The position numbers and the translations under genes are program-made. Below are positions 1 through 9,695 of a stretch of 64,000 bases of DNA, piece after piece. Positions within the stretch are counted from its first letter, which is position 1, and every line of letters begins with the position of its first letter. The stretch comes from a virus, in IMG/VR virus record IMGVR_UViG_3300027805_000008, positions 1 to 64,000 of that record. One strand, 5' to 3'. A model generated the notes under the pieces. That model was not told the origin of the DNA. It worked only from the letters and a program-made list of their open reading frames with translations, and did no database searches.

Positions 1-271
1 CTACAGTTGCGAGAACATCAGTTTCCTGATTGAATGGATTTGTGCGTAACACAAGATGAGCGTCTGAAACATCATTCCAAGATTCTGAAATGTGGTCAGT
101 CAGCGGAGATAAACGAACATTCCAGTTCGCCAACTTTGCTTCTTCAAGCATTGTTTGTGTAGTTACATCCTCATCTTGATTGAAGATTCGGTTTGCGAGA
201 TTGTGCCAAGCGGGTTTGCCACGCAAAGCAAAGGCAACATCGTTGCCATTTGTTTCTAGGTTATGAGCCAT
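1..271 (-). CDS. DUF932-family (phage/plasmid-like, TIGR03299-type) protein, 5' part only; runs off window edge
   Basis: Manual translation MAHNLETNGNDVAFALRGKPAWHNLANRIF..MLEEAKLANWNV; the MAH..PAWH.L N-terminus is typical of DUF932; RBS GAAAGGA upstream. Confidence 0.75.
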   Translation of the reverse strand, partial: MAHNLETNGNDVAFALRGKPAWHNLANRIFNQDEDVTTQTMLEEAKLANWNVRLSPLTDHISESWNDVSDAHLVLRTNPFNQETDVLATV

Positions 272-301
272 AGATTTGTCCTTTCGATTAGTTGAGTTCT
301 G

Positions 302-323
302 ATTATAGCAGGGGGGACTGACA
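302..323 (-). promoter_or_regulatory. PafBC-type (RecA-NDp) promoter TGTCAG-N10-TATAAT
   Basis: Exact motif on minus strand directly upstream of DUF932 gene; one of 13 copies. Confidence 0.85.
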
Positions 324-343
324 TTGTCTAGATTAGTTAGTCA

Positions 344-440
344 TTTGTCCGAATTGTCCAATGTGATCATTCTCACAAATTTTGGGGGATTGTGGATAAC
401 TGTCGTAAGGCTGTGGATAACCCCGCAGCTATTGCGGGCC
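344..440. promoter_or_regulatory. Regulatory module 1: GGACA direct repeat, CRP box (362-377), two DnaA boxes (391-399, 412-420), CCCGCA..TGCGGG hairpin (422-438)
   Basis: TGTGA-tcattc-TCACA; TGTGGATAA x2. Confidence 0.75.
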
Positions 441-480
441 AGCTGGGGAAATGGGGCGGAATAAGATCCGCCCCAAGACT

Positions 481-723
481 TTAGCCAAGCAATTTAGTTA
501 GTTCAGTTTTTGGTGGAAGCGACTCACGATTTATAATTAGAGCAGTTGTCTTTTTCTTTTTTAGATTATCATAAACATACGCTCTGATATTTCCGTCAAA
601 CTTACGCATATTAGAAAATACTAATTCAGTTAGGTATTCTTTATCTACACCTTGCTCTGAATAGATTGTCAAATCATTTGCCTTGTTCTCGTCATAGATT
701 TCAACACGATAACGATTTTTCAT
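481..723 (-). CDS. hypothetical early protein
   Basis: 80 aa ORF with RBS and TATAAT at 751-756. Confidence 0.7.
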   Translation of the reverse strand: MKNRYRVEIYDENKANDLTIYSEQGVDKEYLTELVFSNMRKFDGNIRAYVYDNLKKKKTTALIINRESLPPKTELTKLLG

Positions 724-792
724 TTTGTTCCTTTGTTAGTAGGGATATGAATTATAACATTGGGGGCTAGATTTTGTCTAGCCCCACCTGTA

Positions 793-975
793 TTACTTAC
801 CGATTTTTACCATAGCATAACGCATACCTGCGCCTGTATCTAATCTTAGTTTAGTTAGATTAGGGCGAACGGCGATAATCTCTGCGATTGTGCCTGTGAT
901 ACCGCTTTTGCCTGTGGTGAATACATCGCCTTTGCGATAGAAACGACCCTTAGCAACATCTAGTATTGGAGACAT
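793..975 (-). CDS. small beta-rich (SH3/KOW-like) protein; paralog of 1625-1774
   Basis: Start corrected to MSPILD after RBS GAAAGGA; motif GDVFTTGKSGITGTI. Confidence 0.65.
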   Translation of the reverse strand: MSPILDVAKGRFYRKGDVFTTGKSGITGTIAEIIAVRPNLTKLRLDTGAGMRYAMVKIGK

Positions 976-994
976 TTTATTCCTTTCGTTAGTA

Positions 995-1062
995 GGTGGG
1001 TTTGAGCAGTTTTGCGACTTACTCAGGTCGTTTGGGTTCAGGACTTTAGTTCTGCCCCCCAA
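995..1062 (-). ncRNA. candidate structured leader RNA (hairpin plus H-type pseudoknot)
   Basis: CGAC-cuGAGUAa-GUCG stem whose loop GAGUA can pair with downstream UGCUC. Confidence 0.4.
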
Positions 1063-1067
1063 ATTGC

Positions 1068-1490
1068 TTATAGATAACGAGCAATAGCGTTGTATGTGGA
1101 AGTATTTACAACTTCCTCATCTGTCATTTTGAGGATACGAATTGCGTTCGTGATTTCCTCTTTCATCTCATTGTAAGAGTGAGTATGAATTACCTCAAAA
1201 TCCTTTTCAGGTTCAGCAGGGAAAGTTCCCTCTTTTGTGATAATGTCAAAATCAACATTGAGAGTGTTGTTCCAAGAACGATAGTTTGTGCGAAGGTTCT
1301 CAGCCTTTGAGAAGTTGTCAATAGCCCACTTGCCTACTTCCTTGCGCCACTTTTCCTGAGCCTTCTGAAACTTGGCTTCGTTCTCGCCTTGTGTGGCGTA
1401 GTTCTTTTCTAACTCGGCAAGGCGTGTTTCTAGTGCCTTGATTACTTTAGGTGTAGCGATTTTCACGCTAATAGATTTTCCTCTACTCAT
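1068..1490 (-). CDS. hypothetical coiled-coil early protein
   Basis: 140 aa ORF, RBS, own PafBC-type promoter. Confidence 0.8.
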   Translation of the reverse strand: MSRGKSISVKIATPKVIKALETRLAELEKNYATQGENEAKFQKAQEKWRKEVGKWAIDNFSKAENLRTNYRSWNNTLNVDFDIITKEGTFPAEPEKDFEVIHTHSYNEMKEEITNAIRILKMTDEEVVNTSTYNAIARYL

Positions 1491-1522
1491 TTGTTTTCCC
1501 TTTCGTTTGGTTGGTTGGTTTT

Positions 1523-1544
1523 ATTGTATCAGTTGCTACTGACA
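1523..1544 (-). promoter_or_regulatory. PafBC-type promoter TGTCAG-N10-TACAAT
   Basis: exact motif. Confidence 0.85.
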
Positions 1545-1547
1545 TTT

Positions 1548-1612
1548 CACCCGAAGGTGGAGAGTTCTTACTTACGACATTGGACTAGAACACTCTCTAA
1601 ACTGTCCCTGTT
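1548..1612 (-). ncRNA. candidate structured RNA (stem-loop with possible pseudoknot, followed by cUUCGg hairpin)
   Basis: GAGAGugUUCU/AGAACUCUC stem, GGAC/GUCC loop pairing, CACC-UUCG-GGUG. Confidence 0.4.
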
Positions 1613-1624
1613 TCGTTTAGTTTG

Positions 1625-1774
1625 TTAGACTTCTACTGAAGTCCAACGCTCTGACCCATCTACATCAAGTAGCACTCTCGCCACTCCGCTAGGGTGGTTA
1701 TCTACTGCCTTGATTACTCCGACTACGCCTGACTTAGCAGTTGTAATCGTCTGACCGATTTCTAGTGTTGCCAT
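1625..1774 (-). CDS. 49 aa beta-rich protein (not in ORF track); paralog of 793-975
   Basis: MATLEIGQTITTAKSGVVGVIKAVDNHPSGVARVLLDVDGSERWTSVEV with RBS GAAAGGA. Confidence 0.7.
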   Translation of the reverse strand: MATLEIGQTITTAKSGVVGVIKAVDNHPSGVARVLLDVDGSERWTSVEV

Positions 1775-1799
1775 TTTGTTTCCTTTCGTTTAGGTGATT

Positions 1800-1875
1800 A
1801 TTATAGCGGATACTACTGACATTTAGTATCGCTAATCTCATTATTTGAGAAAGTTAGAGTGTGATACTAATCACA
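1800..1875 (-). promoter_or_regulatory. PafBC-type promoter (1800-1821) plus perfect CRP box (1860-1875)
   Basis: TGTCAG-N10-TATAAT; TGTGA-tactaa-TCACA. Confidence 0.8.
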
Positions 1876-2145
1876 CTCAGGAAGCCACGCATCTAAGTGG
1901 TGAGCCTCGATGATAGCCGATGCTGGTGCGCTTTCCTGCCCACGCCAAGTAATTGGGGCGGGTAGTGTGATAAGTCTTTGATAGTCCTCGTCATAGTATG
2001 CGTCAATAGCATCTATACAAGGTTCGACCATTGATCGTGGAACGGGTGGATAGTGATTACTTGATAAGTGGATACCGATTTGTGTTTCCAAGTCCAAGTC
2101 TAATAAGTCATTATTAGCCAAGTCATAAGCGAGATTACTCCCCAT
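1867..2145 (-). CDS. hypothetical early protein
   Basis: 92 aa ORF, translationally coupled to neighbours. Confidence 0.75.
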   Translation of the reverse strand: MGSNLAYDLANNDLLDLDLETQIGIHLSSNHYPPVPRSMVEPCIDAIDAYYDEDYQRLITLPAPITWRGQESAPASAIIEAHHLDAWLPECD

Positions 2146-2419
2146 TATTATCCTCCTCTAGGATAGTTTCTGATAGGTTGTCCATTTCATCTATTGTAGC
2201 AATAAGGTCTGACATTTCTTGCTCGGTCAATAAGATTTTAGTTACAAGGTCTGCGACTTTGCTTGATAGGGCGGCTGAATACATAAATAAGTATTTAGCA
2301 TAGACTTCATCAGGAAGTTCATTTCTGCGAGTGTGTAGTTCTCCCGCCATTCCCATTATGTCCTCATCAAAGATAGAGTTCTTGGTTGCCTCTAAGATTT
2401 CAACGGCAGTTGATAGCAT
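2135..2419 (-). CDS. hypothetical acidic helical protein
   Basis: 94 aa ORF, TAATG coupling. Confidence 0.75.
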   Translation of the reverse strand: MLSTAVEILEATKNSIFDEDIMGMAGELHTRRNELPDEVYAKYLFMYSAALSSKVADLVTKILLTEQEMSDLIATIDEMDNLSETILEEDNNGE

Positions 2420-2625
2420 TAGTTAGCCACCTTTAGAATTGCGTATGAACCGCCTGCGTTGATTTCGTCAATAGCAGGTTGGATAGCAGGAACGATAAGG
2501 TGTTTTAGCATTCCTTCTAGCATAGCAATTTGGTCATACTTAGTTAGTTGTAGGAAGCGTTGCGCTACTGGATGGGTTTCGTCAAACTCGGTAACGAAGT
2601 TTAGAGAGTGTTCTACTTTTATCAT
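2419..2625 (-). CDS. hypothetical early protein
   Basis: 68 aa ORF with RBS GAAAGG. Confidence 0.7.
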   Translation of the reverse strand: MIKVEHSLNFVTEFDETHPVAQRFLQLTKYDQIAMLEGMLKHLIVPAIQPAIDEINAGGSYAILKVAN

Positions 2626-2654
2626 TTGTTGCCTTTCGTTGTTGGTATGTGAGT

Positions 2655-2786
2655 ATTATAGCCGAAGCCACCGACAATTAGTAGCACCGCCTCGGCGTGT
2701 CGTAGCATTTGTGAGGTTTCTCACATTTTCAGGGTTATCCACAACTAAGCCGTAAGCCTGTGGAAAACCCCGCAGTTCTGCGGGCC
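2655..2786 (-). promoter_or_regulatory. Regulatory module: PafBC-type promoter (2655-2676), GTGTC/WhiA-type motif (2693-2702), CRP box (2710-2725), DnaA boxes (2735-2743, 2759-2767), CCCGCAG..CTGCGGG hairpin
   Basis: TGTCGG-N10-TATAAT; TGTGA-ggtttc-TCACA; TTATCCACA. Confidence 0.8.
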
Positions 2787-2797
2787 TAAGCCTGGAG

Positions 2798-2914
2798 CTA
2801 TTCGCTCCAGATCTCAGGGTCCACTTCTGCTAAATATTCTTTAGCAGCTTTCTTTTCTTCGTCGTTACCAACCACGGAATTTATTAATGCATTAAAGTAC
2901 TTTAGCTCCGCCAT
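2798..2914 (-). CDS. 38 aa hypothetical protein (not in ORF track)
   Basis: MAELKYFNALINSVVGNDEEKKAAKEYLAEVDPEIWSE with RBS AAGGAG. Confidence 0.6.
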   Translation of the reverse strand: MAELKYFNALINSVVGNDEEKKAAKEYLAEVDPEIWSE

Positions 2915-2927
2915 TTTTATTTCTCCT

Positions 2928-3647
2928 TTATTTTTTAGTTGCGCTAAATCTAATATCCGCTTTACCATAAACACACAATCCGCATGACACGCATGCAGAA
3001 CCGTTAGTTGAAATTAGCGGAATGCTTTTATTATTTTCAGGACACTTAGCGCCAGGCTTACCAGTTAATTCTTTCATGATACTTTCAGTCACGGCGAATG
3101 TCTTACCAAGGTAGGCCAAGCGGATACCTTGATTAAGTTTTAAATCGTGAGCAGTGTCTTTATTCTCATCATCCGTTGAATAGTAAAGAGATAGATTAGA
3201 GATATCCTTAAGAATAAGCGCTGCAGACTTTACACGTGTGTAAACCCAAAACTGCACGTCGGTGTTATTATCGATAACGGTCTTCCACGCATATGCGTAG
3301 GTATCGTTAAAGAAATCGCCGTCCCAGTGTATACGGAAGAGCATTTTAGCATTGCGCTTAACACAATCAGCCTTAAACTCTGCAATCATATCTTCAATTA
3401 GGTTAACCATTACGTGCTCATCCGCATTGCGTAGTAATTCCCAATTGTGTAAGAGAACGGCTCTTACTCCCTTGTATACCTTTTCGAGTTTTCCTGCATA
3501 GCATACGCTTTCACAAATACTAGTGGCACCAGGGCACGAGAAAGCCTTACCAGCGGGCAATCCAAAAGTGTTGGCAATTGTTGGGGTTTTTCCATTAGGG
3601 GAGACGGCATTAGCAACCTTTCGATCATTTGAACGTTTTAATTTCAT
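2928..3647 (-). CDS. GP88-family (radical-SAM-like, Cys-cluster) phage protein
   Basis: SCPGAT.IC..VCYA, RIHWDGDFF, FWVYTR, C..CGLC motifs; start moved to MKLKRS (leaderless after promoter 3655-3676). Confidence 0.75.
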   Translation of the reverse strand: MKLKRSNDRKVANAVSPNGKTPTIANTFGLPAGKAFSCPGATSICESVCYAGKLEKVYKGVRAVLLHNWELLRNADEHVMVNLIEDMIAEFKADCVKRNAKMLFRIHWDGDFFNDTYAYAWKTVIDNNTDVQFWVYTRVKSAALILKDISNLSLYYSTDDENKDTAHDLKLNQGIRLAYLGKTFAVTESIMKELTGKPGAKCPENNKSIPLISTNGSACVSCGLCVYGKADIRFSATKK

Positions 3648-3654
3648 GGGGGTA

Positions 3655-3676
3655 ATTGTAGCAGTATGGTCCGACA
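3655..3676 (-). promoter_or_regulatory. PafBC-type promoter TGTCGG-N10-TACAAT (leaderless transcript)
   Basis: exact motif, ATG 7 nt after the -10 hexamer. Confidence 0.85.
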
Positions 3677-3678
3677 TT

Positions 3679-3888
3679 TTAGTAATCCTCATCCATACCA
3701 AAGCCAGCAGAAGCAAGGGCATCAGAATCAGCCCAACCAGTTAGTTCATAGAATTCCATTTCTTCGGAATCGTAGCATTCACCACACATATAGTCATCGC
3801 CATAAATCTCATATTCTTCTTCAGAATAGAAAGTCTCAGTAGCACCACAAATTTCATGGTTCAAGCAAGCAACAATAAAAGTATTCAT
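3679..3888 (-). CDS. very acidic Cys-containing small protein
   Basis: MNTFIVAC..CGEC..DALASAGFGMDEDY; TAATG-coupled start. Confidence 0.7.
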   Translation of the reverse strand: MNTFIVACLNHEICGATETFYSEEEYEIYGDDYMCGECYDSEEMEFYELTGWADSDALASAGFGMDEDY

Positions 3889-3980
3889 TAGTAGCACTCC
3901 CCGCACATTGGATAGTAGTATTCGCCGTCATCGGTTATAAATTGGGTGGTATCTTGACCACATGAAGAACATTTGTTCAT
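3888..3980 (-). CDS. 30 aa CxxC..CxxC micro zinc-ribbon (not in ORF track)
   Basis: MNKCSSCGQDTTQFITDDGEYYYPMCGECY with RBS GAAAGG. Confidence 0.6.
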   Translation of the reverse strand: MNKCSSCGQDTTQFITDDGEYYYPMCGECY

Positions 3981-4009
3981 GAGTTGACCTTTCGTTTGTA
4001 GATATTGGA

Positions 4010-4140
4010 ATTATAGCAGGTTAGACTGACATTTTCCACGCCACGCCCAAAAATCTAGGGTGTTTTAGATCACACCCGTAACGACACGCCCGACTCCGCA
4101 GCTCTGCGGGCATCCCGCCTGTTTGTCAAGCGGGACACCT
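4010..4140 (-). promoter_or_regulatory. Regulatory module: PafBC-type promoter (4010-4031), CRP-like box (4059-4074), CGACACGCCC (4082-4091), CCGCAG..CTGCGG hairpin
   Basis: TGTCAG-N10-TATAAT; GGTGT-tttaga-TCACA. Confidence 0.75.
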
Positions 4141-4145
4141 TTTGT

Positions 4146-4382
4146 TTATTTAGAAATTGCTTTTTGTCTGCGAATTTCTTTTTGCAAATTCTTTAATTGC
4201 TTTTCTAAAACTAAAGTTCTAGCAGATGAGTATTTATAAATTCCCGCTTTCTTTGCTTCTGCTACATAGTAGCGGTCATACTCCAACTCGTGCTTTGCAA
4301 TTAGTTTGCGAATTGCATTGTTGCGAACAGTGCTCATAACTGTTTGATAGTTTTTAGTTCCTGATTTAATTGGCTTAGCCAT
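4146..4382 (-). CDS. basic hypothetical protein
   Basis: 78 aa Lys/Arg-rich ORF with RBS. Confidence 0.7.
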   Translation of the reverse strand: MAKPIKSGTKNYQTVMSTVRNNAIRKLIAKHELEYDRYYVAEAKKAGIYKYSSARTLVLEKQLKNLQKEIRRQKAISK

Positions 4383-4385
4383 TTC

Positions 4386-4520
4386 TTATTCCCTTTCGTT
4401 TTTATTTTTGTGTTTTAGTTTGCGTGTGTATTTCTTTTTATTGCGAACAGGTTGCGCCGCATTACTACGACGCAATTCCTGAATGCGTTTTACCTTATCT
4501 CGAAGTGAAGTTTGGAACAT
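4386..4520 (-). CDS. 44 aa highly basic protein with ArfA-like KKxYxRKxKH motif (not in ORF track)
   Basis: MFQTSLRDKVKRIQELRRSNAAQPVRNKKKYTRKLKHKNKNERE. Confidence 0.6.
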   Translation of the reverse strand: MFQTSLRDKVKRIQELRRSNAAQPVRNKKKYTRKLKHKNKNERE

Positions 4521-4686
4521 TGTATCCACTCGCTTCGTGAAATCGCTTTACATCAAATCTAGGATTATCTTTCGCAAACATTTCTGCAAAATCATTTACC
4601 ATTTTAGAAAATAAAGCGGGGTGAGTTTTATTGCTCGCATACTTTAGAATTTCTGCGGTTGCTATGTAATCTTTGCGTGTCATCAT
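4495..4686 (-). CDS. MTRKDY-type small phage protein; paralog of 7470-7640
   Basis: MMTRKDY..A.IL...DFA.MFA.DN..F. Confidence 0.75.
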   Translation of the reverse strand: MMTRKDYIATAEILKYASNKTHPALFSKMVNDFAEMFAKDNPRFDVKRFHEASGYNVPNFTSR

Positions 4687-4889
4687 TTTACAACGACCTT
4701 TCTGCCTTCACGATAAAATACTTTCGTGTAGCATTTTCCGCTAGGTGTATAAAGATTTACAGTTGAGTATTCGTTAGCAAATCCCCAATCGGTGAATAGA
4801 AAAAAGTTTTCCCAAGCCCCGTATTCGTTTTCGTATTCAGCAGACCAATGCGGAGCATTAGAGTCATAAGCGCAAGTTAGTTTATACAT
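4683..4889 (-). CDS. hypothetical early protein
   Basis: 68 aa ORF, RBS. Confidence 0.7.
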   Translation of the reverse strand: MYKLTCAYDSNAPHWSAEYENEYGAWENFFLFTDWGFANEYSTVNLYTPSGKCYTKVFYREGRKVVVK

Positions 4890-4936
4890 TTAGGTTTTCC
4901 CTTTCGTTAGTTGAGCATAAGCATTTATTTATAGTT

Positions 4937-4958
4937 ATTGTATCACCTACCACCGACA
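4937..4958 (-). promoter_or_regulatory. PafBC-type promoter TGTCGG-N10-TACAAT
   Basis: exact motif. Confidence 0.8.
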
Positions 4959-5001
4959 AGGTGGCAAGTGTTGAGCAATTGTCGCAGATAAAGATTTCCA
5001 T

Positions 5002-5148
5002 TTATTTATTCTCCTGAAAAAATCCAAGAGGATTACATTGACAAGCCTCTACATCAAACATTTCTTCGTTGCCGTAGTATAGCCAGCCTTTGCCGTAGCA
5101 GGTATCACACTCTAAAATCTGAGTGTATAATTCTTTCATTCTTCCCAT
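5002..5148 (-). CDS. 48 aa CxxC..CxC zinc-binding protein (not in ORF track)
   Basis: MGRMKELYTQILECDTCYGKGWLYYGNEEMFDVEACQCNPLGFFQENK with RBS. Confidence 0.65.
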   Translation of the reverse strand: MGRMKELYTQILECDTCYGKGWLYYGNEEMFDVEACQCNPLGFFQENK

Positions 5149-5180
5149 TTTAGTTTTCCTTTCGTGTTTTGATAAATCAG

Positions 5181-5202
5181 ATTATAGCACCGACTACCGA
5201 CA
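5181..5202 (-). promoter_or_regulatory. PafBC-type promoter TGTCGG-N10-TATAAT
   Basis: exact motif. Confidence 0.85.
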
Positions 5203-5203
5203 T

Positions 5204-5347
5204 TTATTCGGCTTCGGGGGTGTGGAATAAGGCTCCCTCATTTAGCAAGCCTAATTCAATGTTGAACATTTCATCGGGGGTGGCTTCGGATAAATCTACC
5301 CAGCCAGCGCCGTTTTCATTCATTCTAAAAATTTCAATGTATCCCAT
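5204..5347 (-). CDS. 47 aa acidic protein (not in ORF track)
   Basis: MGYIEIFRMNENGAGWVDLSEATPDEMFNIELGLLNEGALFHTPEAE. Confidence 0.6.
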   Translation of the reverse strand: MGYIEIFRMNENGAGWVDLSEATPDEMFNIELGLLNEGALFHTPEAE

Positions 5348-5349
5348 TA

Positions 5350-5556
5350 TTATTCACCTACCTTTACTGCGATTGTTGCGAATTTATTTCGCAGACCGCC
5401 AGTTCTAATTTCGATTAGATAGGCTTCAGTATTTTCGCCATACCAAATTTCTGGGCGAGGTTCTGCTGAAACAATTTCGCCCTGAAAGTGGCGATTAGTT
5501 GAGCGATAGTTTTTCCCTACAAGTAGGCTTTCGATTGTGTATAGTTTGGTAGCCAT
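5350..5556 (-). CDS. small beta-barrel-like protein; paralog of 6561-6776
   Basis: YTIESLLVGKNY..AE.R...EAY.I..R...ATIAV. Confidence 0.7.
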   Translation of the reverse strand: MATKLYTIESLLVGKNYRSTNRHFQGEIVSAEPRPEIWYGENTEAYLIEIRTGGLRNKFATIAVKVGE

Positions 5557-5591
5557 TGGCAGACCTTCTTTCGTTTGTTGTTATGTATGGA

Positions 5592-5806
5592 ATTATACAC
5601 GAACGGACTGACATTTTCACATTACTAGCCAGTAAATCCAAATAGTGAGACGCTCAAGCCGTGTGATACTAATCACATAAAAATGTCCGATTTGTCTGTC
5701 AAGCCGACACGCCGCAGAATTCAGGGATTTTTATAACGAGTTCATAACGACACGCCCGACCCCGTGCCTTTGCGGGCCAGCTTGATTTTGTCAAGCCGAC
5801 ACGCCG
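5592..5806 (-). promoter_or_regulatory. Regulatory module: PafBC-type promoter (5592-5613), CRP box (5662-5677), GACA repeat, three GACACGCC motifs, ATAACGA direct repeat, CCCG..CGGG hairpin
   Basis: TGTCAG-N10-TATAAT; TGTGA-tactaa-TCACA; GACAC at 5706, 5749, 5798. Confidence 0.8.
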
Positions 5807-5813
5807 TTAGTTA

Positions 5814-6005
5814 TTAAATATTTTCATTTTCTTTTATTGCATCTTCAAAATCTAACAGTGATTGGTGATACGCAACTGGATCACATTCTCGCAAAATTTG
5901 AGACGGATAAAATTTTAAGTAACCAATTTCAACAACTGGATAAGCCTCGTCTAACATTTCGTCAAACATTGTTTTAATTTCAAAAGCAGTTTCAAAATCT
6001 AACAT
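5814..6005 (-). CDS. acidic small phage protein
   Basis: FDEMLDEAYP....ILRECDPVAY. Confidence 0.7.
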   Translation of the reverse strand: MLDFETAFEIKTMFDEMLDEAYPVVEIGYLKFYPSQILRECDPVAYHQSLLDFEDAIKENENI

Positions 6006-6109
6006 TATTTATTTTCCTTTGAGTTAGTAGCGGATAGAATTGCGAGAGCCTCTTTTTTAGAAGCCTCTCGTTGCGCTATAACAAGCGCCTTATATTCATC
6101 AAGTTTCAT
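5999..6109 (-). CDS. 36 aa helical peptide; paralog of 6776-6880 (not in ORF track)
   Basis: MKLDEYKALVIAQREASKKEALAILSAT.. Confidence 0.65.
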
Positions 6110-6310
6110 TTATTTAACCTCCAAACAATTTACGCAAAAGCATTTTGGGCTTTCGCTAATTAAGATTTTTAACAACGCTTTGCGTTGCCAAATGCTAAGA
6201 CCATAGGTGCTTTTAGCACCGCCATTATTCCAATCGTGCAAGATACGATTTTCTAACGCACCAGATATTCCTAGTGCTAATCCGATATTTGTTTTTTCTA
6301 GTGTAGTCAT
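6110..6310 (-). CDS. small Cys-containing protein; paralog of 6880-7035
   Basis: NRILHDWNNGG..RKALLK..CxCxxC; start corrected to MTTLEK. Confidence 0.7.
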   Translation of the reverse strand: MTTLEKTNIGLALGISGALENRILHDWNNGGAKSTYGLSIWQRKALLKILISESPKCFCVNCLEVK

Positions 6311-6344
6311 TTGAGACCACCTTTCTTTATTTTCTAATACTAGT

Positions 6345-6557
6345 ATTCTAGCAGGGGGGTCTGACATTTACTGACCAGTAATCGGTCAAATCGGACATTT
6401 TGAAATGTGTTTAGTATCACATCATTTTTTTACGCTCAAATTCCTGGGGTGTTTAATATCACATCATAAGCGACACGCCCGAGCCCGCAAAAGACTGCGG
6501 GCCGATCTGAGCAAAGTCAAGCCGACACGCCGTTGTGTCGGTATGATTTACATCACA
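6345..6557 (-). promoter_or_regulatory. Regulatory module: PafBC-type promoter (6345-6366), GGACA motif, three CRP-like boxes (6406-6421, 6448-6463, 6542-6557), GACAC motifs, CCCGCA..TGCGGG hairpin (6484-6501)
   Basis: TGTCAG-N10-TAGAAT; N5-N6-TCACA boxes. Confidence 0.75.
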
Positions 6558-6560
6558 ATT

Positions 6561-6776
6561 TCAGTAATCTGAAATTCTAACGGCAACCGTAGCCCACTCA
6601 TCTCTGAGTGATCCCGTTGGGCGATAACGAATAGCAAAAGCCTCATAGCCCTCTGGTGGATAAACATCTTCACGCTTTTCTGCGTGGTTGATAATTCCAC
6701 CATTGAAACGGCGGCGTAGCGAAGTAGGCTTGTAGTATTGGTCTACAAGTAAATCAACGATTGAATAACCTCTCAT
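6561..6776 (-). CDS. small beta-barrel-like protein; paralog of 5350-5556
   Basis: YSIVDLLVDQYY..AEKRE..EAFAIRYR..ATVAV. Confidence 0.7.
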   Translation of the reverse strand: MRGYSIVDLLVDQYYKPTSLRRRFNGGIINHAEKREDVYPPEGYEAFAIRYRPTGSLRDEWATVAVRISDY

Positions 6777-6880
6777 TATTCACTCTCCTTTTTGATAGTA
6801 GCGGATAGGATTTCAAGCGCCTCTTTTTTAGACGCTTCACGTTGTTCAATAACGTGTTTTTTGAATTCTTCTAAATTCAT
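6776..6880 (-). CDS. 34 aa helical peptide; paralog of 5999-6109 (not in ORF track)
   Basis: MNLEEFKKHVIEQREASKKEALEILSATIKKESE, TAATG-coupled at both ends. Confidence 0.7.
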   Translation of the reverse strand: MNLEEFKKHVIEQREASKKEALEILSATIKKESE

Positions 6881-7035
6881 TATTTAGCACACTCGCAATC
6901 TTTATGAGTAGGGATAGAAAATAAATACTTTAGCAAAGCCTTACGCTCTGATAAAGAAATTTCGGGGTGAAAGTTTTTCACTCCACCGTGTTGATAATCA
7001 AACACAATTTTATTGAAAGTTTTTTCGGATAACAT
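6880..7035 (-). CDS. small protein; paralog of 6110-6310
   Basis: NKIVFDYQHGG..RKALLK..DCEC. Confidence 0.65.
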   Translation of the reverse strand: MLSEKTFNKIVFDYQHGGVKNFHPEISLSERKALLKYLFSIPTHKDCECAK

Positions 7036-7037
7036 TA

Positions 7038-7220
7038 TTACATCACCCAACTTTCTTGAGTGTATGATAACCACTCACCAAGAGTCATCAAACCCTTGTA
7101 TTCATTACATTTTCCGCAAAAGATTTCATTTGCGTAGTCTGAGCAAAAAGCGCAGACGATTAGATTTGCCTCATCGGCACTTACATTTGAGAGAGTAATC
7201 TCTCTGATTAGTGTAGTCAT
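7038..7220 (-). CDS. CxxC..CxxC zinc-ribbon small protein
   Basis: CAFC..CGKC; RBS GAAAGGTGG. Confidence 0.7.
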   Translation of the reverse strand: MTTLIREITLSNVSADEANLIVCAFCSDYANEIFCGKCNEYKGLMTLGEWLSYTQESWVM

Positions 7221-7269
7221 TATTGACCACCTTTCTTGAAATAACCTTTATTTCATCTTGATACCTAGT

Positions 7270-7460
7270 ATCCTACCACCTACCACTGACATTTTGACCC
7301 CTTTTTCGGGCGTGTCGGAAAACTATTTTTGTGATTTAGGTCATGTGGATAACTTACGCTCAAATTCCAGGGGTTTTCCACACCTGTGAATAAAGCTGTG
7401 GATAACGCCCGCAAAAGACTGCGGGCCGAATAATTATGCATTTTCGTGAATAATTATTCG
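7270..7460 (-). promoter_or_regulatory. Regulatory module: PafBC-type promoter (7270-7291), GTGTC, CRP-like box (7330-7345), four DnaA boxes (7344, 7374, 7385, 7397), hairpin (7408-7425), tandem ARG-box-like operator (7427-7460)
   Basis: TGTCAG-N10-TAGGAT; TGTGGATAA x2, TTTTCCACA, TGTGAATAA; CGAATAATTATGCA / TGAATAATTATTCG at 20-bp period. Confidence 0.8.
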
Positions 7461-7469
7461 CCTTTTATT

Positions 7470-7640
7470 TTATTTATTACACGCCTCTAAAAATTTATCT
7501 GCGTTAAATTGCGAATTATCTTCCGCAAACATTGACGCAAAATCATCAACTAGATCGTGATAAGTAAACTCATCACCGATTAAATCTTTATAACTAGAAA
7601 GAATATCGGCGGTCTTTACATAGTCTTTTCGTGTCATCAT
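7470..7640 (-). CDS. MTRKDY-type small protein; paralog of 4495-4686 (not in ORF track)
   Basis: MMTRKDYVKTADILSSY..LVDDFASMFAEDNSQFNADKFLEAC. Confidence 0.75.
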   Translation of the reverse strand: MMTRKDYVKTADILSSYKDLIGDEFTYHDLVDDFASMFAEDNSQFNADKFLEACNK

Positions 7641-7641
7641 T

Positions 7642-7752
7642 TTAATTTAACCCATTTTCTTTTATGTCTTTTATTACGGCGATTAGTAGCGGGATAGTTA
7701 CCCCCGCTAATAGTAATTGAACGGCGGTAGTTAGTAAGCGATTAGTAGTCAT
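7642..7752 (-). CDS. 36 aa single-TM membrane peptide (not in ORF track)
   Basis: MTTNRLLTTAVQLLLAGVTIPLLIAVIKDIKENGLN, TAATG-coupled. Confidence 0.6.
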   Translation of the reverse strand: MTTNRLLTTAVQLLLAGVTIPLLIAVIKDIKENGLN

Positions 7753-7889
7753 TAGTTATTCTTCTTCCATTTATAAATCTTGTAAGCAATTAGCGCAATA
7801 GTAGCGGGTATAATTACTTGCCAAGATAAAGCGATATAGCAGACATAGGTATCAAACTCTAAGCCGTAGTCATTTAGTTCTAGTGTCAT
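7752..7889 (-). CDS. 45 aa single-TM membrane peptide (not in ORF track)
   Basis: ..YIALSWQVIIPATIALIAYKIYKWKKNN. Confidence 0.6.
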   Translation of the reverse strand: MTLELNDYGLEFDTYVCYIALSWQVIIPATIALIAYKIYKWKKNN

Positions 7890-8072
7890 TTATTTTATTC
7901 CTAACATAGTAGCGACATTATCTAATTCTTCATCTGTAAGATGGTCTAACTCAATAGCCTTAGAGAAACCGAAGAAATCTTCTTCATCTTCTTGTTCTAC
8001 TTCATCTACATCATCTAAGTGGCGATAAGCATCTGCTACATCTGCCTGAATAGTATCCCATTTAGTCATCAT
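7890..8072 (-). CDS. very acidic small protein
   Basis: 60 aa, D/E-rich (DDVDEVEQEDEED). Confidence 0.7.
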   Translation of the reverse strand: MMTKWDTIQADVADAYRHLDDVDEVEQEDEEDFFGFSKAIELDHLTDEELDNVATMLGIK

Positions 8073-8224
8073 TACTTTACCTCTACTCCTCTTACATTGT
8101 AGGTAAATCCCTTACCTAGTTTATTTAGTTCTTCCATTACTTTTAGTAGTTCATCTGCGCTAGTAGCCTTGTTATCTACTGATAGTAGGTTAGCGCCTTG
8201 CCATAGTGAGTATGTTATTGTCAT
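8072..8224 (-). CDS. 50 aa hypothetical protein (not in ORF track)
   Basis: MTITYSLWQGANLLSVDNKATSADELLKVMEELNKLGKGFTYNVRGVEVK. Confidence 0.65.
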   Translation of the reverse strand: MTITYSLWQGANLLSVDNKATSADELLKVMEELNKLGKGFTYNVRGVEVK

Positions 8225-8263
8225 TTTATTTTCTATTCTTTCTGTTAGTAGTTATTAGTTAGT

Positions 8264-8314
8264 GGGTCTTATTCGCTAGGCTCACCTTTCGGATTATTTG
8301 CTAGGCTCATACCC
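8264..8314 (-). repeat. Twofold-symmetric leader element: TGAGCCTAGCRAATAA x2 around a CC-GAAA-GG hairpin, closed by GGGT/ACCC
   Basis: directly visible. Confidence 0.7.
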
Positions 8315-8332
8315 TTATTTAGTTATGGTGTA

Positions 8333-8398
8333 ACCTTATCATAGGTTACTGACATTTAGGGGGATTTAGCCCCTAGTGTCGGTGTGAGTTACCTCACA
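8333..8398 (-). promoter_or_regulatory. PafBC-type promoter (8333-8354), GTGTC, perfect CRP box (8383-8398)
   Basis: TGTCAG-N10-TAAGGT; TGTGA-gttacc-TCACA. Confidence 0.8.
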
Positions 8399-8541
8399 TT
8401 TACTAGGGCGTGTGTAGCGTAGTTACCGCCACACATTACGCATAGTGTCCAAGCGGTTACTCTACCGCAACCATTAGAACACGCCACATAGTGGCTAGGT
8501 GTATGGTAGTCGTTACGACTTTCCCAAATACGATTAGTCAT
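8389..8541 (-). CDS. small zinc-binding protein
   Basis: MTNRIWESR..CSNGC..CVMC; start corrected. Confidence 0.6.
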   Translation of the reverse strand: MTNRIWESRNDYHTPSHYVACSNGCGRVTAWTLCVMCGGNYATHALVNVR

Positions 8542-8542
8542 A

Positions 8543-8752
8543 TTAGTTAGCCTTTCTATTAGATAGAACCCAAGCGGACTCATTAGGTGATAGATACTTA
8601 TGTGAGATTAGGTTCTCACTAGCAACCATATAGACATATGCCATACGGCTTATGTAGTTGCCATTAGATAGGCGAAAGATATTTTTATCCTTAGTGTTAC
8701 TAGAGGACATAGGGTGAGTAGGTTCTACTACTACTGATACTGAGTGAGTCAT
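8543..8752 (-). CDS. hypothetical protein; first gene of leftward early region
   Basis: 69 aa, RBS GAAAGGAG. Confidence 0.7.
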   Translation of the reverse strand: MTHSVSVVVEPTHPMSSSNTKDKNIFRLSNGNYISRMAYVYMVASENLISHKYLSPNESAWVLSNRKAN

Positions 8753-8801
8753 TTTGACTCCTTTCTTGTTACTAACCTTTAGTAACTTTCTTTATATATA
8801 A

Positions 8802-8930
8802 AGCGTAACACGGGGCACTGACATTTTCAAGCACCAACACTAGACAAATCGGACATTTTGAAAAAAAAGTTGGTGATTAGCGTCACAATTAGCCTAATAT
8901 GGGCGCACTATATAGACAAAACGGACATTT
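8802..8930 (-). promoter_or_regulatory. PafBC-type promoter (8802-8823), GACAAAWCGGACA x2 (8843-8855, 8915-8927), CRP-like box (8872-8887)
   Basis: TGTCAG-N10-TACGCT; GGTGA-ttagcg-TCACA. Confidence 0.75.
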
Positions 8931-9080
8931 ATAAACTCTGGATCATACAAATAAAATCTCTATTAACATTTTAGTAAATCTGATATTGTGGTTGACTGAA
9001 ATATATAGTAGAATGATCACATGATAAAAAGCGGGAACCGAATATAAAGCTTTACCTAACAAGCCTTAAGTAAAGGCTAA

Positions 9081-9155
9081 GGGGATATAGCTTAATCTGG
9101 TTAAAGCATTTGTCTTATATACAAACGACTCTGGGTTCAAATCCCAGTATCCCTA
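9081..9155 (+). tRNA. tRNA-Ile (anticodon UAU)
   Basis: Cloverleaf GGGGATA/TATCCCT, anticodon arm TTTGT-CTTATAT-ACAAA, T arm CTGGG-TTCAAAT-CCCAG. Confidence 0.85.
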
Positions 9156-9409
9156 CTACATAAAAATATTTTTAAAACTCTTGACCTAGCAAATTTTATA
9201 ATGTTATACTTAAGACTGGTTTGTGGGGGCTTACACTGAAACTCATAATGACGGAAATGTGTAGCTTCTCTATCCTACAAAATTGATTTTAAATTTTGGG
9301 GGGTAGGGGGGCTTTCCTAAAATCTAAAAATCTGGAAATGTAATTAAAAGAAATATATATCATATATATCTTAGTTGACTAGAATATAGATAGAGTATAC
9401 AATAAAACA

Positions 9410-9517
9410 ATGGCTGCTAATAGAACTGTTACTTGTGATAAATGTGGGCGGGAGATCGAAGTAAGATCTGGATTTGCCCATGCAACACTATATAACCACT
9501 ATAGAGCATGTAAATGA
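9410..9517 (+). CDS. 35 aa C2HC zinc-finger microprotein, leaderless (not in ORF track)
   Basis: MAANRTVTCDKCGREIEVRSGFAHATLYNHYRACK directly after a TTGACT..TACAAT promoter. Confidence 0.6.
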   Translation: MAANRTVTCDKCGREIEVRSGFAHATLYNHYRACK

Positions 9518-9578
9518 AAAAAAATATTTTTTTAACATTTTGTTAAATCTAATATTGTAGTCGACTAGGATTAATATA

Positions 9579-9695
9579 ATGATTAAATGTGATTTCTGTG
9601 ATAATCAAAAGTATGTTGAAAGATTAAACAGTAAAGGTGTGCTAGAGAATTACTGTGTAAATTGTATTGATAAATTAAAAAGGCGGGAAAGCTAG
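9579..9695 (+). CDS. 38 aa CxxC..CxxC microprotein (not in ORF track)
   Basis: MIKCDFCDNQKYVERLNSKGVLENYCVNCIDKLKRRES. Confidence 0.55.
   Translation: MIKCDFCDNQKYVERLNSKGVLENYCVNCIDKLKRRES

What the first reader, a model, noticed from the sequence alone, without database searches (positions are those of the whole stretch)
362..8887. CRP boxes are helically phased relative to the PafBC-type promoters
Seen: perfect TGTGA-N6-TCACA at 362, 1860, 2710, 5662 and 8383, and near-perfect boxes at 4059, 6406, 6448, 6542, 7330 and 8872. Distances from the nearest box centre to the last base of the -10 hexamer in the nine modules are 67.5, 67.5, 62.5, 56.5, 77.5, 68.5, 67.5, 57.5 and 77.5 bp. Eight of nine fall on one ~10-bp helical phase (about -64, -74, -84). 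Known: class I CRP activation requires same-face placement (about -61, -71, -82 in E. coli). Inference: the phasing argues for real CRP co-activation of PafBC-type promoters rather than passive decoys. This would be a possibly new CRP plus PafBC AND-gate.
Basis: partly seen in the sequence, partly recalled or inferred. Interest (0 to 1): 0.85.

Follow-up and report, generated by a model that had tools for sequence, protein, structure and literature searches.

The report
Phased CRP-type boxes on phage promoters
An uncultured lake phage of actinobacteria places a 16-base palindrome, identical to the docking site of cAMP-receptor-type (CRP) regulators, whole DNA turns upstream of about half of its unusual PafBC-type promoters, which suggests, with no binding or expression test so far, that a dimeric and probably host regulator tunes these small genes.

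Summary
Observation confirmed. The window holds 5 perfect TGTGA-N6-TCACA boxes (0.03 expected), all within 362-8398. The nine quoted distances are arithmetically right. Two rest on 2-mismatch boxes (4059, 7330), which occur at chance frequency. The ladder holds far beyond this window. In 80 related viral contigs plus this genome, 333 of 418 distinct boxed promoters (80%; 30% expected) have the box centre 37.5, 47.5, 57.5, 67.5, 77.5 or 87.5 bp (±1) from the end of the -10. Spacers on different rungs are unrelated in sequence. DnaA-like boxes and terminators in the same gaps are not phased.

Interpretation partly supported. Phasing argues for a promoter-coupled protein rather than a passive decoy. 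Box anatomy fits actinobacterial CRP/GlxR. No phage CRP gene was found, and a candidate host family encodes a CRP whose aligned DNA-binding helix-turn-helix segment matches M. tuberculosis CRP at all but one residue.

An obligatory AND gate is not supported. Half of the same promoters lack a box yet have equal core quality, and a sister lineage keeps the promoters almost without boxes. The register is 3 bp off E. coli class I. The 62.5-bp "outlier" is a separate conserved architecture. Nothing has been tested at the bench. The scan found the same arrangement before in at least seven related phage genomes.

The parts
362..377 (.). Perfect CRP-type box. Centre is 67.5 bp from the -10 end of promoter 302-323.
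302..323 (-). TGTCAG-N10-TATAAT promoter (PafBC geometry), boxed
1523..1544 (-). Promoter of the same type, no box. Its ortholog group has no box in 65 of 65 relatives.
1800..1821 (-). Promoter, boxed
1860..1875 (.). Perfect box, 67.5 bp. It overlaps the stop of the upstream ORF 1867-2145. The orthologous promoter in relatives sits on rungs 47.5, 57.5, 67.5 and 77.5.
2193..2214 (-). Promoter, no box
2655..2676 (-). Promoter of the off-phase class
2710..2725 (.). Perfect box, 62.5 bp. Read on the gene (minus) strand, the order is box, then 7 nt, then CGACACGCC (window 2695-2703), then 17 nt, then TGTCGG.
3655..3676 (-). Promoter, no box
4010..4031 (-). Promoter. The only candidate box is weak.
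4059..4074 (.). 2-mismatch box, 56.5 bp, chance-level by sequence. The ortholog group in relatives is mixed (none, 71.5, 56.5, 70.5).
4937..4958 (-). Promoter, no box
5181..5202 (-). Promoter, no box
5592..5613 (-). Promoter, boxed
5662..5677 (.). Perfect box, same 16 bases as at 1860, but 77.5 bp from its promoter
6345..6366 (-). Promoter, boxed
6406..6421 (.). 1-mismatch box, 68.5 bp
6448..6463 (.). 2-mismatch box, 110.5 bp from promoter 6345-6366, chance-level by sequence
6542..6557 (.). 1-mismatch box, 204.5 bp from promoter 6345-6366. It overlaps the end of ORF 6548-6703/6561-6776.
7270..7291 (-). Promoter. The only candidate box is weak. GACACGCC lies about 43 bp upstream.
7330..7345 (.). 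2-mismatch box, 67.5 bp, chance-level by sequence. 21 of 31 orthologous promoters in relatives have no box.
8333..8354 (-). Promoter, boxed
8383..8398 (.). Perfect box, 57.5 bp. It overlaps the end of ORF 8389-8583.
8802..8823 (-). Promoter, boxed. It is the rightmost of the leftward block.
8872..8887 (.). 1-mismatch box, 77.5 bp

Best explanation
The boxes are binding sites for a dimeric CRP-family regulator, most likely the host's own Crp/GlxR-type protein. From one face of the helix, at about -54.5, -64.5, -74.5 or -84.5, this protein modulates a subset of the phage's leftward promoters. Activation in a class-I-like manner through the RNA polymerase alpha C-terminal domain or the factor at the -26 element is the most likely mode.

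Those promoters have the exact geometry of actinobacterial PafBC-dependent promoters: TGTCRG-N10-TAnnnT with no -35 element. The box is an optional extra input on the first promoter after a long gap. It is not an obligatory second key.

Shown: the motifs, their excess, the ladder, its independence of spacer sequence, and the absence of a phage CRP gene. Inferred: who binds, the sign of the effect, and any cAMP dependence.
For: Excess and placement:
- 5 perfect boxes against 0.03 expected.
- 401 against 1.3 expected in relatives, 359 of them just upstream of a promoter on the gene strand.

Ladder:
- 80% of 418 distinct modules are in phase. Rungs are 10.0-10.1 bp apart.
- 194 of 243 sequence clusters are in phase.
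- 22 of 28 downstream-gene groups have an in-phase modal distance. Binomial P is about 1e-7 (my arithmetic).
- The same gene's promoter sits on different rungs in different phages, with unrelated spacers.
- Controls in the same gaps are unphased.

Box anatomy:
- The logo is TGTGA(T/G)n(T)(A)n(A/C)TCACA. This matches the inner preferences of E. coli CRP and GlxR sites as I know them.
- The arms are invariant, with no compensatory variants. That fits a protein site, not an RNA stem.

Who could bind:
- No HTH_Crp_2 domain in this genome or in five 100%-complete relatives.
- All 21 genomes of a candidate host family have a hit to the CRP-type HTH (19 over the family cut-off, 17 of them in full-length 228-306-aa frames). 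The one examined aligns to M. tuberculosis CRP at E 5e-77, and the helix-turn-helix segment including RETVNK differs at one residue.
- In M. tuberculosis, ChIP enrichment rises as mismatches to this consensus fall (PMC4117774).

Promoter type:
- The consensus equals the PafBC ChIP-seq motif tGTCgg(N10)tA(N3)T (PMC8635444).
- The N10 spacing is strict.
- 52% of all TGnTAnAAT on the gene strand carry TGTCRG at that spacing.
- A MAG that carries a related phage contig has a pafB-pafC pair.
Against: - No binding, transcription start or expression data exist. RNA contigs from metatranscriptomes cover the genes but cannot show starts.
- The host is inferred, not known. Phage contigs of this family are binned into MAGs of many phyla.
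- The register is 3 bp off E. coli class I positions.
- About 20% of modules are off the ladder (62.5, 70.5-71.5, 74.5-75.5).
- Boxed and unboxed promoters have nearly equal core elements, so a need for activation is not evident.
- A phage protein of unrecognised fold could bind the same palindrome.
- The closest cultured relative, Streptomyces phage Karimac, has neither motif in its equivalent arm. No tested system carries the arrangement.
Confidence: 0.55

Rival explanations
1. The palindrome is the operator of a phage-encoded dimeric regulator, or of a host factor that is not CRP. That regulator happens to share, or has converged on, the CRP consensus. It contacts the promoter complex from one face.
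For: Most small genes of the block have no recognisable family, so an unrecognised DNA-binding protein is possible. The architecture is confined to this phage lineage: it is absent from Karimac and from distant GP88-carrying elements. The sister lineage L093/L094 has lost or never had the boxes while keeping the promoters. That is what loss of a phage regulator gene would produce.
Against: All 10 core positions and the inner preferences match CRP/GlxR. There is no CRP-type HTH in six genomes. The same gaps carry other words that equal host-factor sites, namely the DnaA box TTATCCACA and the PafBC -26 element. The consensus does not drift across relatives with 77-92% identity in the marker protein.
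Confidence: 0.2
2. Host CRP binds, but the purpose is repression, silencing or titration. Phased CRP would hold the promoter complex or loop DNA to delay these genes. Alternatively, many perfect sites on replicating phage DNA would drain CRP from host promoters.
For: GlxR and M. tuberculosis CRP act as repressors as well as activators (PMC10187061; PMC4117774). Boxed promoters are not weaker than unboxed ones. Perfect-consensus sites are the strongest binders in M. tuberculosis. Five candidate host-family genomes have no perfect site at all, so phage sites would compete well.
Against: Pure titration needs no helical phase. Repressors usually overlap the core promoter, whereas these sites lie 47-88 bp upstream of the -10, with the commonest rungs where class I activators sit. 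The zero count in host genomes does not differ from the control pattern, which gave 1.
Confidence: 0.15
3. A strict two-key AND gate, the first reader's reading: transcription needs both PafBC (DNA-damage or ssDNA signal) and cAMP-CRP.
For: Both motif types are present and phased in the same modules. Both regulators exist in candidate hosts.
Against: 395 distinct promoters of the same type work, presumably, without any box and with the same -10, extended -10 and -26 quality. Five of the 14 promoters in this window are box-less. Lineage L093/L094 is almost box-free. In C. glutamicum lacking cAMP, GlxR binding is reduced but not abolished (PMC10187061).
Confidence: 0.1

Closest known systems
Class I CRP(CAP)-dependent promoters of E. 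coli (lac type; sites centred at -61.5, -71.5, -82.5, -92.5; positions from my own knowledge)
   Same: Same 16-bp palindrome. Sites lie upstream of the core promoter on a ladder of one helical turn, with the nearer rungs the most used. Measured from the centre of the upstream promoter element, the distances are 29, 39, 49 and 59 bp. Class I sites are 29, 39, 50 and 60 bp from the -35 hexamer centre (my arithmetic).
   Different: Measured from the -10 or the start site, the register is shifted by 3 bp (-54.5, -64.5, -74.5, -84.5). The core promoter has no -35 but a -26 element. The host is an actinobacterium. Dependence on CRP has not been shown. Half of the promoters of the same type have no box.
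PafBC-dependent (RecA-NDp) promoters of Actinobacteria, read by sigma adaptation (PMC8635444)
   Same: The 22-nt motif is identical: tGTCgg-N10-tAnnnT. The spacing is strict and no conserved -35 is present.
   Different: These are on a phage, about 14 per genome, driving small genes of unknown function. No upstream CRP-type site came up in the passages of that paper that I searched; the word CRP does not occur in its text. In the PafBC complex the upstream DNA is straight and redirected by 44 degrees, which may explain the shifted register. PafBC binding here is untested, and the phage has no WYL gene.
Actinobacterial Crp/GlxR regulon sites (M. tuberculosis Rv3676, C. glutamicum GlxR)
   Same: The consensus is TGTGA-N6-TCACA. 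The recognition helix RETVNK is present in the candidate host family. Sites occur upstream of start sites at -62.5, -69.5 and -96.5 among the top ChIP peaks.
   Different: In the passages of that paper that I searched, no helical ladder came up; the word 'helical' does not occur in its text. Cellular sites are mostly imperfect, whereas here perfect sites are the rule.
T4 middle promoters (MotA box at about -30 plus AsiA: sigma appropriation)
   Same: Phage promoters that replace the -35 element by an activator site closer to the -10. PMC8635444 itself names this as the nearest analogue.
   Different: In T4 the factors are phage-encoded and remodel sigma region 4. Here no phage factor is identified, and a further upstream palindrome is added.
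Streptomyces phages of family Stanwilliamsviridae (e.g. Karimac), the closest cultured relatives
   Same: Portal is about 60% identical. Synteny is shared: a leftward arm of small genes, then transglycosylase, glycosyltransferase and ribonucleotide reductase.
   Different: Karimac has no TGTCRG-N10-TAnnnT promoter and no good CRP box in its first 24 kb.

Membership tests
CRP/GlxR-type binding site | 16-bp palindrome TGTGA-N6-TCACA in excess over chance | tested here: met
   5 against 0.03 expected in the window. 401 against 1.3 in 1.34 Mb of relatives.
CRP/GlxR-type binding site | Inner-position preferences of CRP sites: T/G at position 6, A/C at 11, T-A at the centre | tested here: met
   Logo of 378 distinct boxes. 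The comparison with the published consensus is from my own knowledge.
CRP/GlxR-type binding site | A CRP-family protein with the matching recognition helix is available in the infected cell | tested here: inconclusive
   The candidate host family has a CRP ortholog with RETVNK, but the host is not established. The phage encodes none.
CRP/GlxR-type binding site | Bound by CRP in vitro or in vivo | not testable with these tools
   Needs EMSA, footprinting or ChIP.
Class I CRP-dependent promoter | Site on one helical face upstream of the core promoter (periodic spacing) | tested here: met
   80% of 418 modules are on a 10-bp ladder.
Class I CRP-dependent promoter | Site centred at -61.5, -71.5, -82.5 or -92.5 relative to the start site | tested here: not met
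   Centres fall at -54.5, -64.5, -74.5 and -84.5 if the -10 occupies -12 to -7, as in PafBC promoters. The start sites are not mapped.
Class I CRP-dependent promoter | Transcription depends on CRP; core promoter deficient without it | tested here: inconclusive
   Boxed and unboxed promoters have nearly the same core quality. Function is not testable here.
PafBC-dependent promoter | tGTCgg-N10-tAnnnT with strict spacing and no -35 element | tested here: met
   The motif is from PMC8635444.
PafBC-dependent promoter | PafBC present in the host; binding and induction by DNA damage or ssDNA | tested here: inconclusive
   A pafB-pafC pair is present in one MAG that carries a related phage contig. 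Binding is not testable. The loose motif is not enriched over the control in five candidate host-family genomes.
Two-input AND gate | Both inputs are required for output | not testable with these tools
   The anatomy speaks against an obligatory requirement.

The most novel reading that the evidence does not exclude
Host CRP activates sigma-adaptation (PafBC-type) promoters in a new geometry. The ladder is set by the -26 element rather than by the start site: 29, 39, 49 and 59 bp from its centre. CRP would therefore dock against the PafBC/sigma-4/alpha-CTD assembly on the straight upstream DNA of that complex. An abundant family of lake phages would have built its small-gene block on this two-regulator design, so these genes would read both a DNA-damage/ssDNA signal and a nutrient signal.
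Probability: 0.25. Interest if true: 0.8.

Novelty: new variant of a known kind. Interest (0 to 1): 0.65.

Why it matters
If a CRP-type regulator really acts from a fixed face on PafBC-type promoters, this would be, so far as my literature searches show, the first case of an upstream activator combined with sigma adaptation. It would also be a clear example of a phage wiring a whole gene block to two host global regulators.

The phage family is abundant in lakes. More than 598 related contigs were found, and near-identical DNA occurs in runs from 15 studies. It probably infects streamlined freshwater actinobacteria that are hard to culture.

The several hundred natural spacing variants amount to a ready-made spacing-mutagenesis experiment. 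The design can be tested in M. smegmatis, which is known to have both regulators.

Tried and rejected
- Megablast of 1-9000 against cultured phages found no match.
- Phage-encoded CRP HTH or WYL domain: none in this genome, and no CRP HTH in five complete relatives.
- Cultured relative Karimac has neither motif, so there is no cultured model.
- More distant GP88-carrying elements (L097; Paraburkholderia, Blastococcus, Geodermatophilus) have neither motif.
- The loose PafBC motif in five candidate host-family genomes gave 8-19 hits against 5-15 for the control, so there is no enrichment at this stringency.
- Perfect CRP boxes in those genomes: 0, against 1 for the control pattern, so avoidance cannot be claimed.
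Hits are spread almost evenly over all gaps and taxa, as chance predicts. There is no cellular ladder.
- Metatranscriptome contigs of four runs cover the genes, but contigs cannot show 5' ends. An adapter-flanked contig end at 1779 does not fit the predicted start near 1793.
- Natural test of whether the ladder follows the -10 or the -26 element was impossible. Spacings other than N10 occur only at background level.
- RNA-hairpin reading of the palindrome was rejected. The arms are invariant without compensatory changes, and the boxes lie upstream of the promoters.
- Ladder as inherited spacing was rejected. Spacers on different rungs are unrelated in sequence.

Full report
WHAT THE WINDOW IS

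The window is the first 64 kb of a 91.3-kb linear IMG/VR virus record, 84% complete and about 38% G+C. Several lines mark it as a phage of actinobacteria.
- Its portal is about 60% identical to that of Streptomyces phages of the Karimac group.
- A GP88-family protein (2928-3722, minus strand) is about 55% identical to proteins of Mycobacterium cluster-A phages.
- It encodes a WhiB.
- Gene order matches Karimac: a leftward arm of small genes, then transglycosylase, glycosyltransferase and ribonucleotide reductase.

More than 598 related viral contigs exist. Near-identical DNA occurs in freshwater runs of 15 studies. In a complete relative with terminal repeats, the small-gene arm lies at the genome end and partly inside the repeat.

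THE OBSERVATION

Five perfect TGTGA-N6-TCACA boxes lie at 362, 1860, 2710, 5662 and 8383, against 0.03 expected. There are no others in the whole genome. Three one-mismatch boxes (6406, 6542, 8872) bring the count to 8 against 2.3 expected. The boxes at 4059, 6448 and 7330 have two mismatches, a level at which the window is at chance (32 against 34).

Fourteen TGTC[AG]G-N10-TAnnnT motifs lie on the minus strand between 302 and 8823. Each is followed by a Shine-Dalgarno-like run and a small ORF. Five promoters have no box: 1523, 2193, 3655, 4937 and 5181.

THE PROMOTER TYPE

In 80 related loci the motif occurs 1155 times on the gene strand and 9 times on the other.
- The consensus is AAAA-TGTC(A/G)G-T-(G/C)(G/C)-N4-TGn-TAtaaT. 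No information is present where a -35 would lie.
- The spacing is strictly N10. Other spacings occur only at background level.
- Starting only from extended -10 elements, 52% of those on the gene strand have TGTCAG or TGTCGG at exactly that spacing. On the other strand neither hexamer is among the eight commonest at that position, each of which occurs at most 8 times in 238.

This equals the in-vivo PafBC motif tGTCgg(N10)tA(N3)T. PafBC replaces the -35 contact by a -26 element spanning -23 to -28 (PMC8635444). That PafBC reads the phage promoters is an inference.

THE LADDER IN RELATIVES

Of 401 perfect boxes in 1.34 Mb (1.3 expected), 359 lie within 130-140 bp upstream of a promoter.
- Among 418 distinct boxed modules, 333 (80%) lie within one base of 37.5+10n. 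Rung means are 37.5, 47.6, 57.3, 67.5, 77.6 and 87.7. A uniform spread would give 30%.
- After clustering by sequence, 194 of 243 clusters are in phase. The best period is about 10.2 bp, with R=0.63.
- Grouping promoters by the protein they drive, 22 of 28 groups with boxes have an in-phase modal distance. Binomial P is about 1e-7 (my arithmetic).
- At least ten groups occupy two to four rungs in different phages. For example, the ortholog of the 1800 promoter sits at 47.5, 57.5, 67.5 and 77.5.
- The spacers on different rungs are unrelated in sequence. The ladder is therefore not inherited spacing or a 10-bp repeat.
- In the same gaps, the DnaA-like word TTATCCACA (R=0.12) and the terminator stem (R=0.21) are not phased.

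WHO BINDS

The logo of 378 distinct boxes shows T/G at position 6, A/C at position 11 and T-A at the centre. By my knowledge these are the inner preferences of CRP and GlxR sites. The arms never show compensatory variants, which fits a protein site and not an RNA stem.

No CRP-type HTH is encoded by this genome or by five 100%-complete relatives.

Two contigs of this phage family are binned into a 1.3-Mb Actinomycetota MAG. All 21 genomes sampled from that MAG's family (1.0-2.2 Mb) have a hit to the CRP-type HTH (19 over the family cut-off, 17 of them in full-length 228-306-aa frames). The one examined aligns to M. tuberculosis CRP at E 5e-77, and the helix-turn-helix segment including RETVNK differs at one residue. 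Another MAG that carries a related phage contig has a pafB-pafC pair.

Binning is weak host evidence, because other contigs sit in MAGs of unrelated phyla.

In M. tuberculosis, ChIP enrichment of CRP sites rises as mismatches fall (PMC4117774). Perfect phage boxes should therefore be strong sites.

HOW IT MOST LIKELY WORKS, AND THE LIMITS

A face-of-helix constraint over five rungs and unrelated spacers means the box-bound protein must meet something at the promoter. That is the logic of class I activation, and it argues against pure decoys.

1. Register. With the -10 at -12 to -7, the centres are -54.5, -64.5, -74.5 and -84.5, which is 3 bp off the E. coli class I positions. Measured from the centre of the -26 element, the distances are 19, 29, 39, 49, 59 and 69 bp. 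These equal class I distances from the -35 centre (my arithmetic). In the PafBC open complex the upstream DNA is straight and redirected by 44 degrees. A register set by the PafBC/sigma-4 assembly is therefore plausible, but it is inferred.

2. No sign of an obligatory second key. The 395 distinct unboxed promoters have almost the same core as the 418 boxed ones. Extended -10 is present in 64% against 58%, and the mean -10 match is 5.21 against 5.06. A sister lineage (L093, L094) has 7 and 11 promoters with one imperfect box.

3. The off-phase module at 2710 belongs to a conserved class. It has the box at 62.5 bp, then 7 nt, then CGACACG(CC), then TGTCRG. Of 32 distinct members, 22 carry the GACAC word at that place.

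The same three-part order occurs upstream of a leaderless parE-like topoisomerase gene in two MAGs, one labelled Nanopelagicales and one Actinomycetota (L145, L156). In L156 both spacings (7 nt after the box, 26 nt from CGACACG to TGTC) are as in the phage; in L145 the first is 6 nt.

WHAT WAS NOT FOUND

- A truncated scan of 185,579 genomes for box plus promoter gave hits spread over all gaps and taxa, as chance predicts. There is no cellular ladder. It did reveal a conserved composite upstream of dnaX in Nocardia, at 59.5 bp.
- Metatranscriptome contigs of four runs cover the small genes but cannot show starts.
- Full-text searches found nothing on CRP sites in actinophages, or on upstream activators at PafBC promoters.

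EARLIER NOTES OF THIS SCAN

The same arrangement was reported before in at least seven other genomes of this phage family, with the same partial verdict. My test on 80 relatives is independent of those texts but covers the same family.

VERDICT

A phased, CRP-type and probably host-bound modulator of PafBC-type phage promoters is the best reading (about 0.55). A strict AND gate is unlikely (about 0.1). This is a new variant of known kinds: class I-like placement on sigma-adaptation-type promoters, carried by a phage. It is untested at the bench.

Noticed in passing
window 2695-2703 (CGACACGCC on the minus strand), 7305-7312; L145:871-946; L156 (reverse strand): A GACACGC word sits at a fixed 43 bp (or, inverted, 35 bp) from the -10 end in a subset of modules. 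It marks the off-phase 62.5 class. The same order, box then CGACACG then TGTCAG-N10-TAGGTT, lies before a leaderless parE-like gene in two MAGs (one labelled Nanopelagicales, one Actinomycetota); the box-to-CGACACG gap is 7 nt in L156 and 6 nt in L145, and CGACACG-to-TGTC is 26 nt in both. Five lower-GC genomes of the candidate host family lack it.
   Followed up: partly
window 391-399, 411-419, 2735-2743, 7346-7354, 7400-7408: Perfect DnaA-box words (TTATCCACA / TGTGGATAA) recur in the long gaps between terminator and CRP-type box, mostly in one orientation in relatives. They are not helically phased to the promoter (R=0.12).
   Followed up: partly
window 5679-5692, 6388-6402, 8848-8862: A second word, AAAATGTCCGATTT, resembles the -26 element but has no -10 after it. 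It recurs in either orientation. In relatives it sits at a fixed 51.5 bp in the 77.5 class.
   Followed up: no
window 8980-9600 (+ strand): Rightward canonical TTGAC-N17-TAnnnT-like promoters with a tRNA-Ile. They are a different promoter class from the leftward block, so the two arms are probably under different control.
   Followed up: no
L118 (G006:C2:768000-784000): A candidate host-family genome has five phage-like motifs of the TGTC[AG]G-N10-TAnnnT type within 8 kb, three of them of the phage-like form TGTC(A/G)GTGG..CTGCTAnCTT. They lie among HipA, Abi_2 and HD-domain genes. This may be a defence or mobile island using the same promoter type.
   Followed up: partly
L130:6880-6954 (minus strand), L131, L146: In several Nocardia genomes a perfect CRP box lies 59.5 bp from the -10 of a TGTCRGT-N9-TAACCT motif; in L130 this is directly before a leaderless dnaX. 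This is a possible cellular CRP-plus-PafBC-type composite promoter.
   Followed up: partly
L093, L094: A sister phage lineage (GP88 71% identical, 41-42% GC) keeps 7 and 11 TGTCAG-type promoters but has almost no CRP-type boxes.
   Followed up: partly
spacers between box and promoter in relatives (e.g. L079, L024, L022): Many spacers hold a short inverted repeat of their own, such as CCCCTCAGAAATGAGGGG or TCTCAAATAATGAGA. These may be sites for a further dimeric protein.
   Followed up: no
window 1068-1669: Summed depth of RNA-library contigs is highest in the three bins spanning 1082-1963 in two of the four metatranscriptomes laid (X11, X18); these cover the 140-aa gene at 1068-1490 and the neighbouring 49-aa ORF at 1625-1774. 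Contig depth is a poor measure and DNA carry-over is not excluded.
   Followed up: no
G027:C1:448-3950 and 109190-111128: In a complete relative with direct terminal repeats, part of the boxed small-gene arm is inside the repeat. These genes are thus present twice and lie at the genome end.
   Followed up: no
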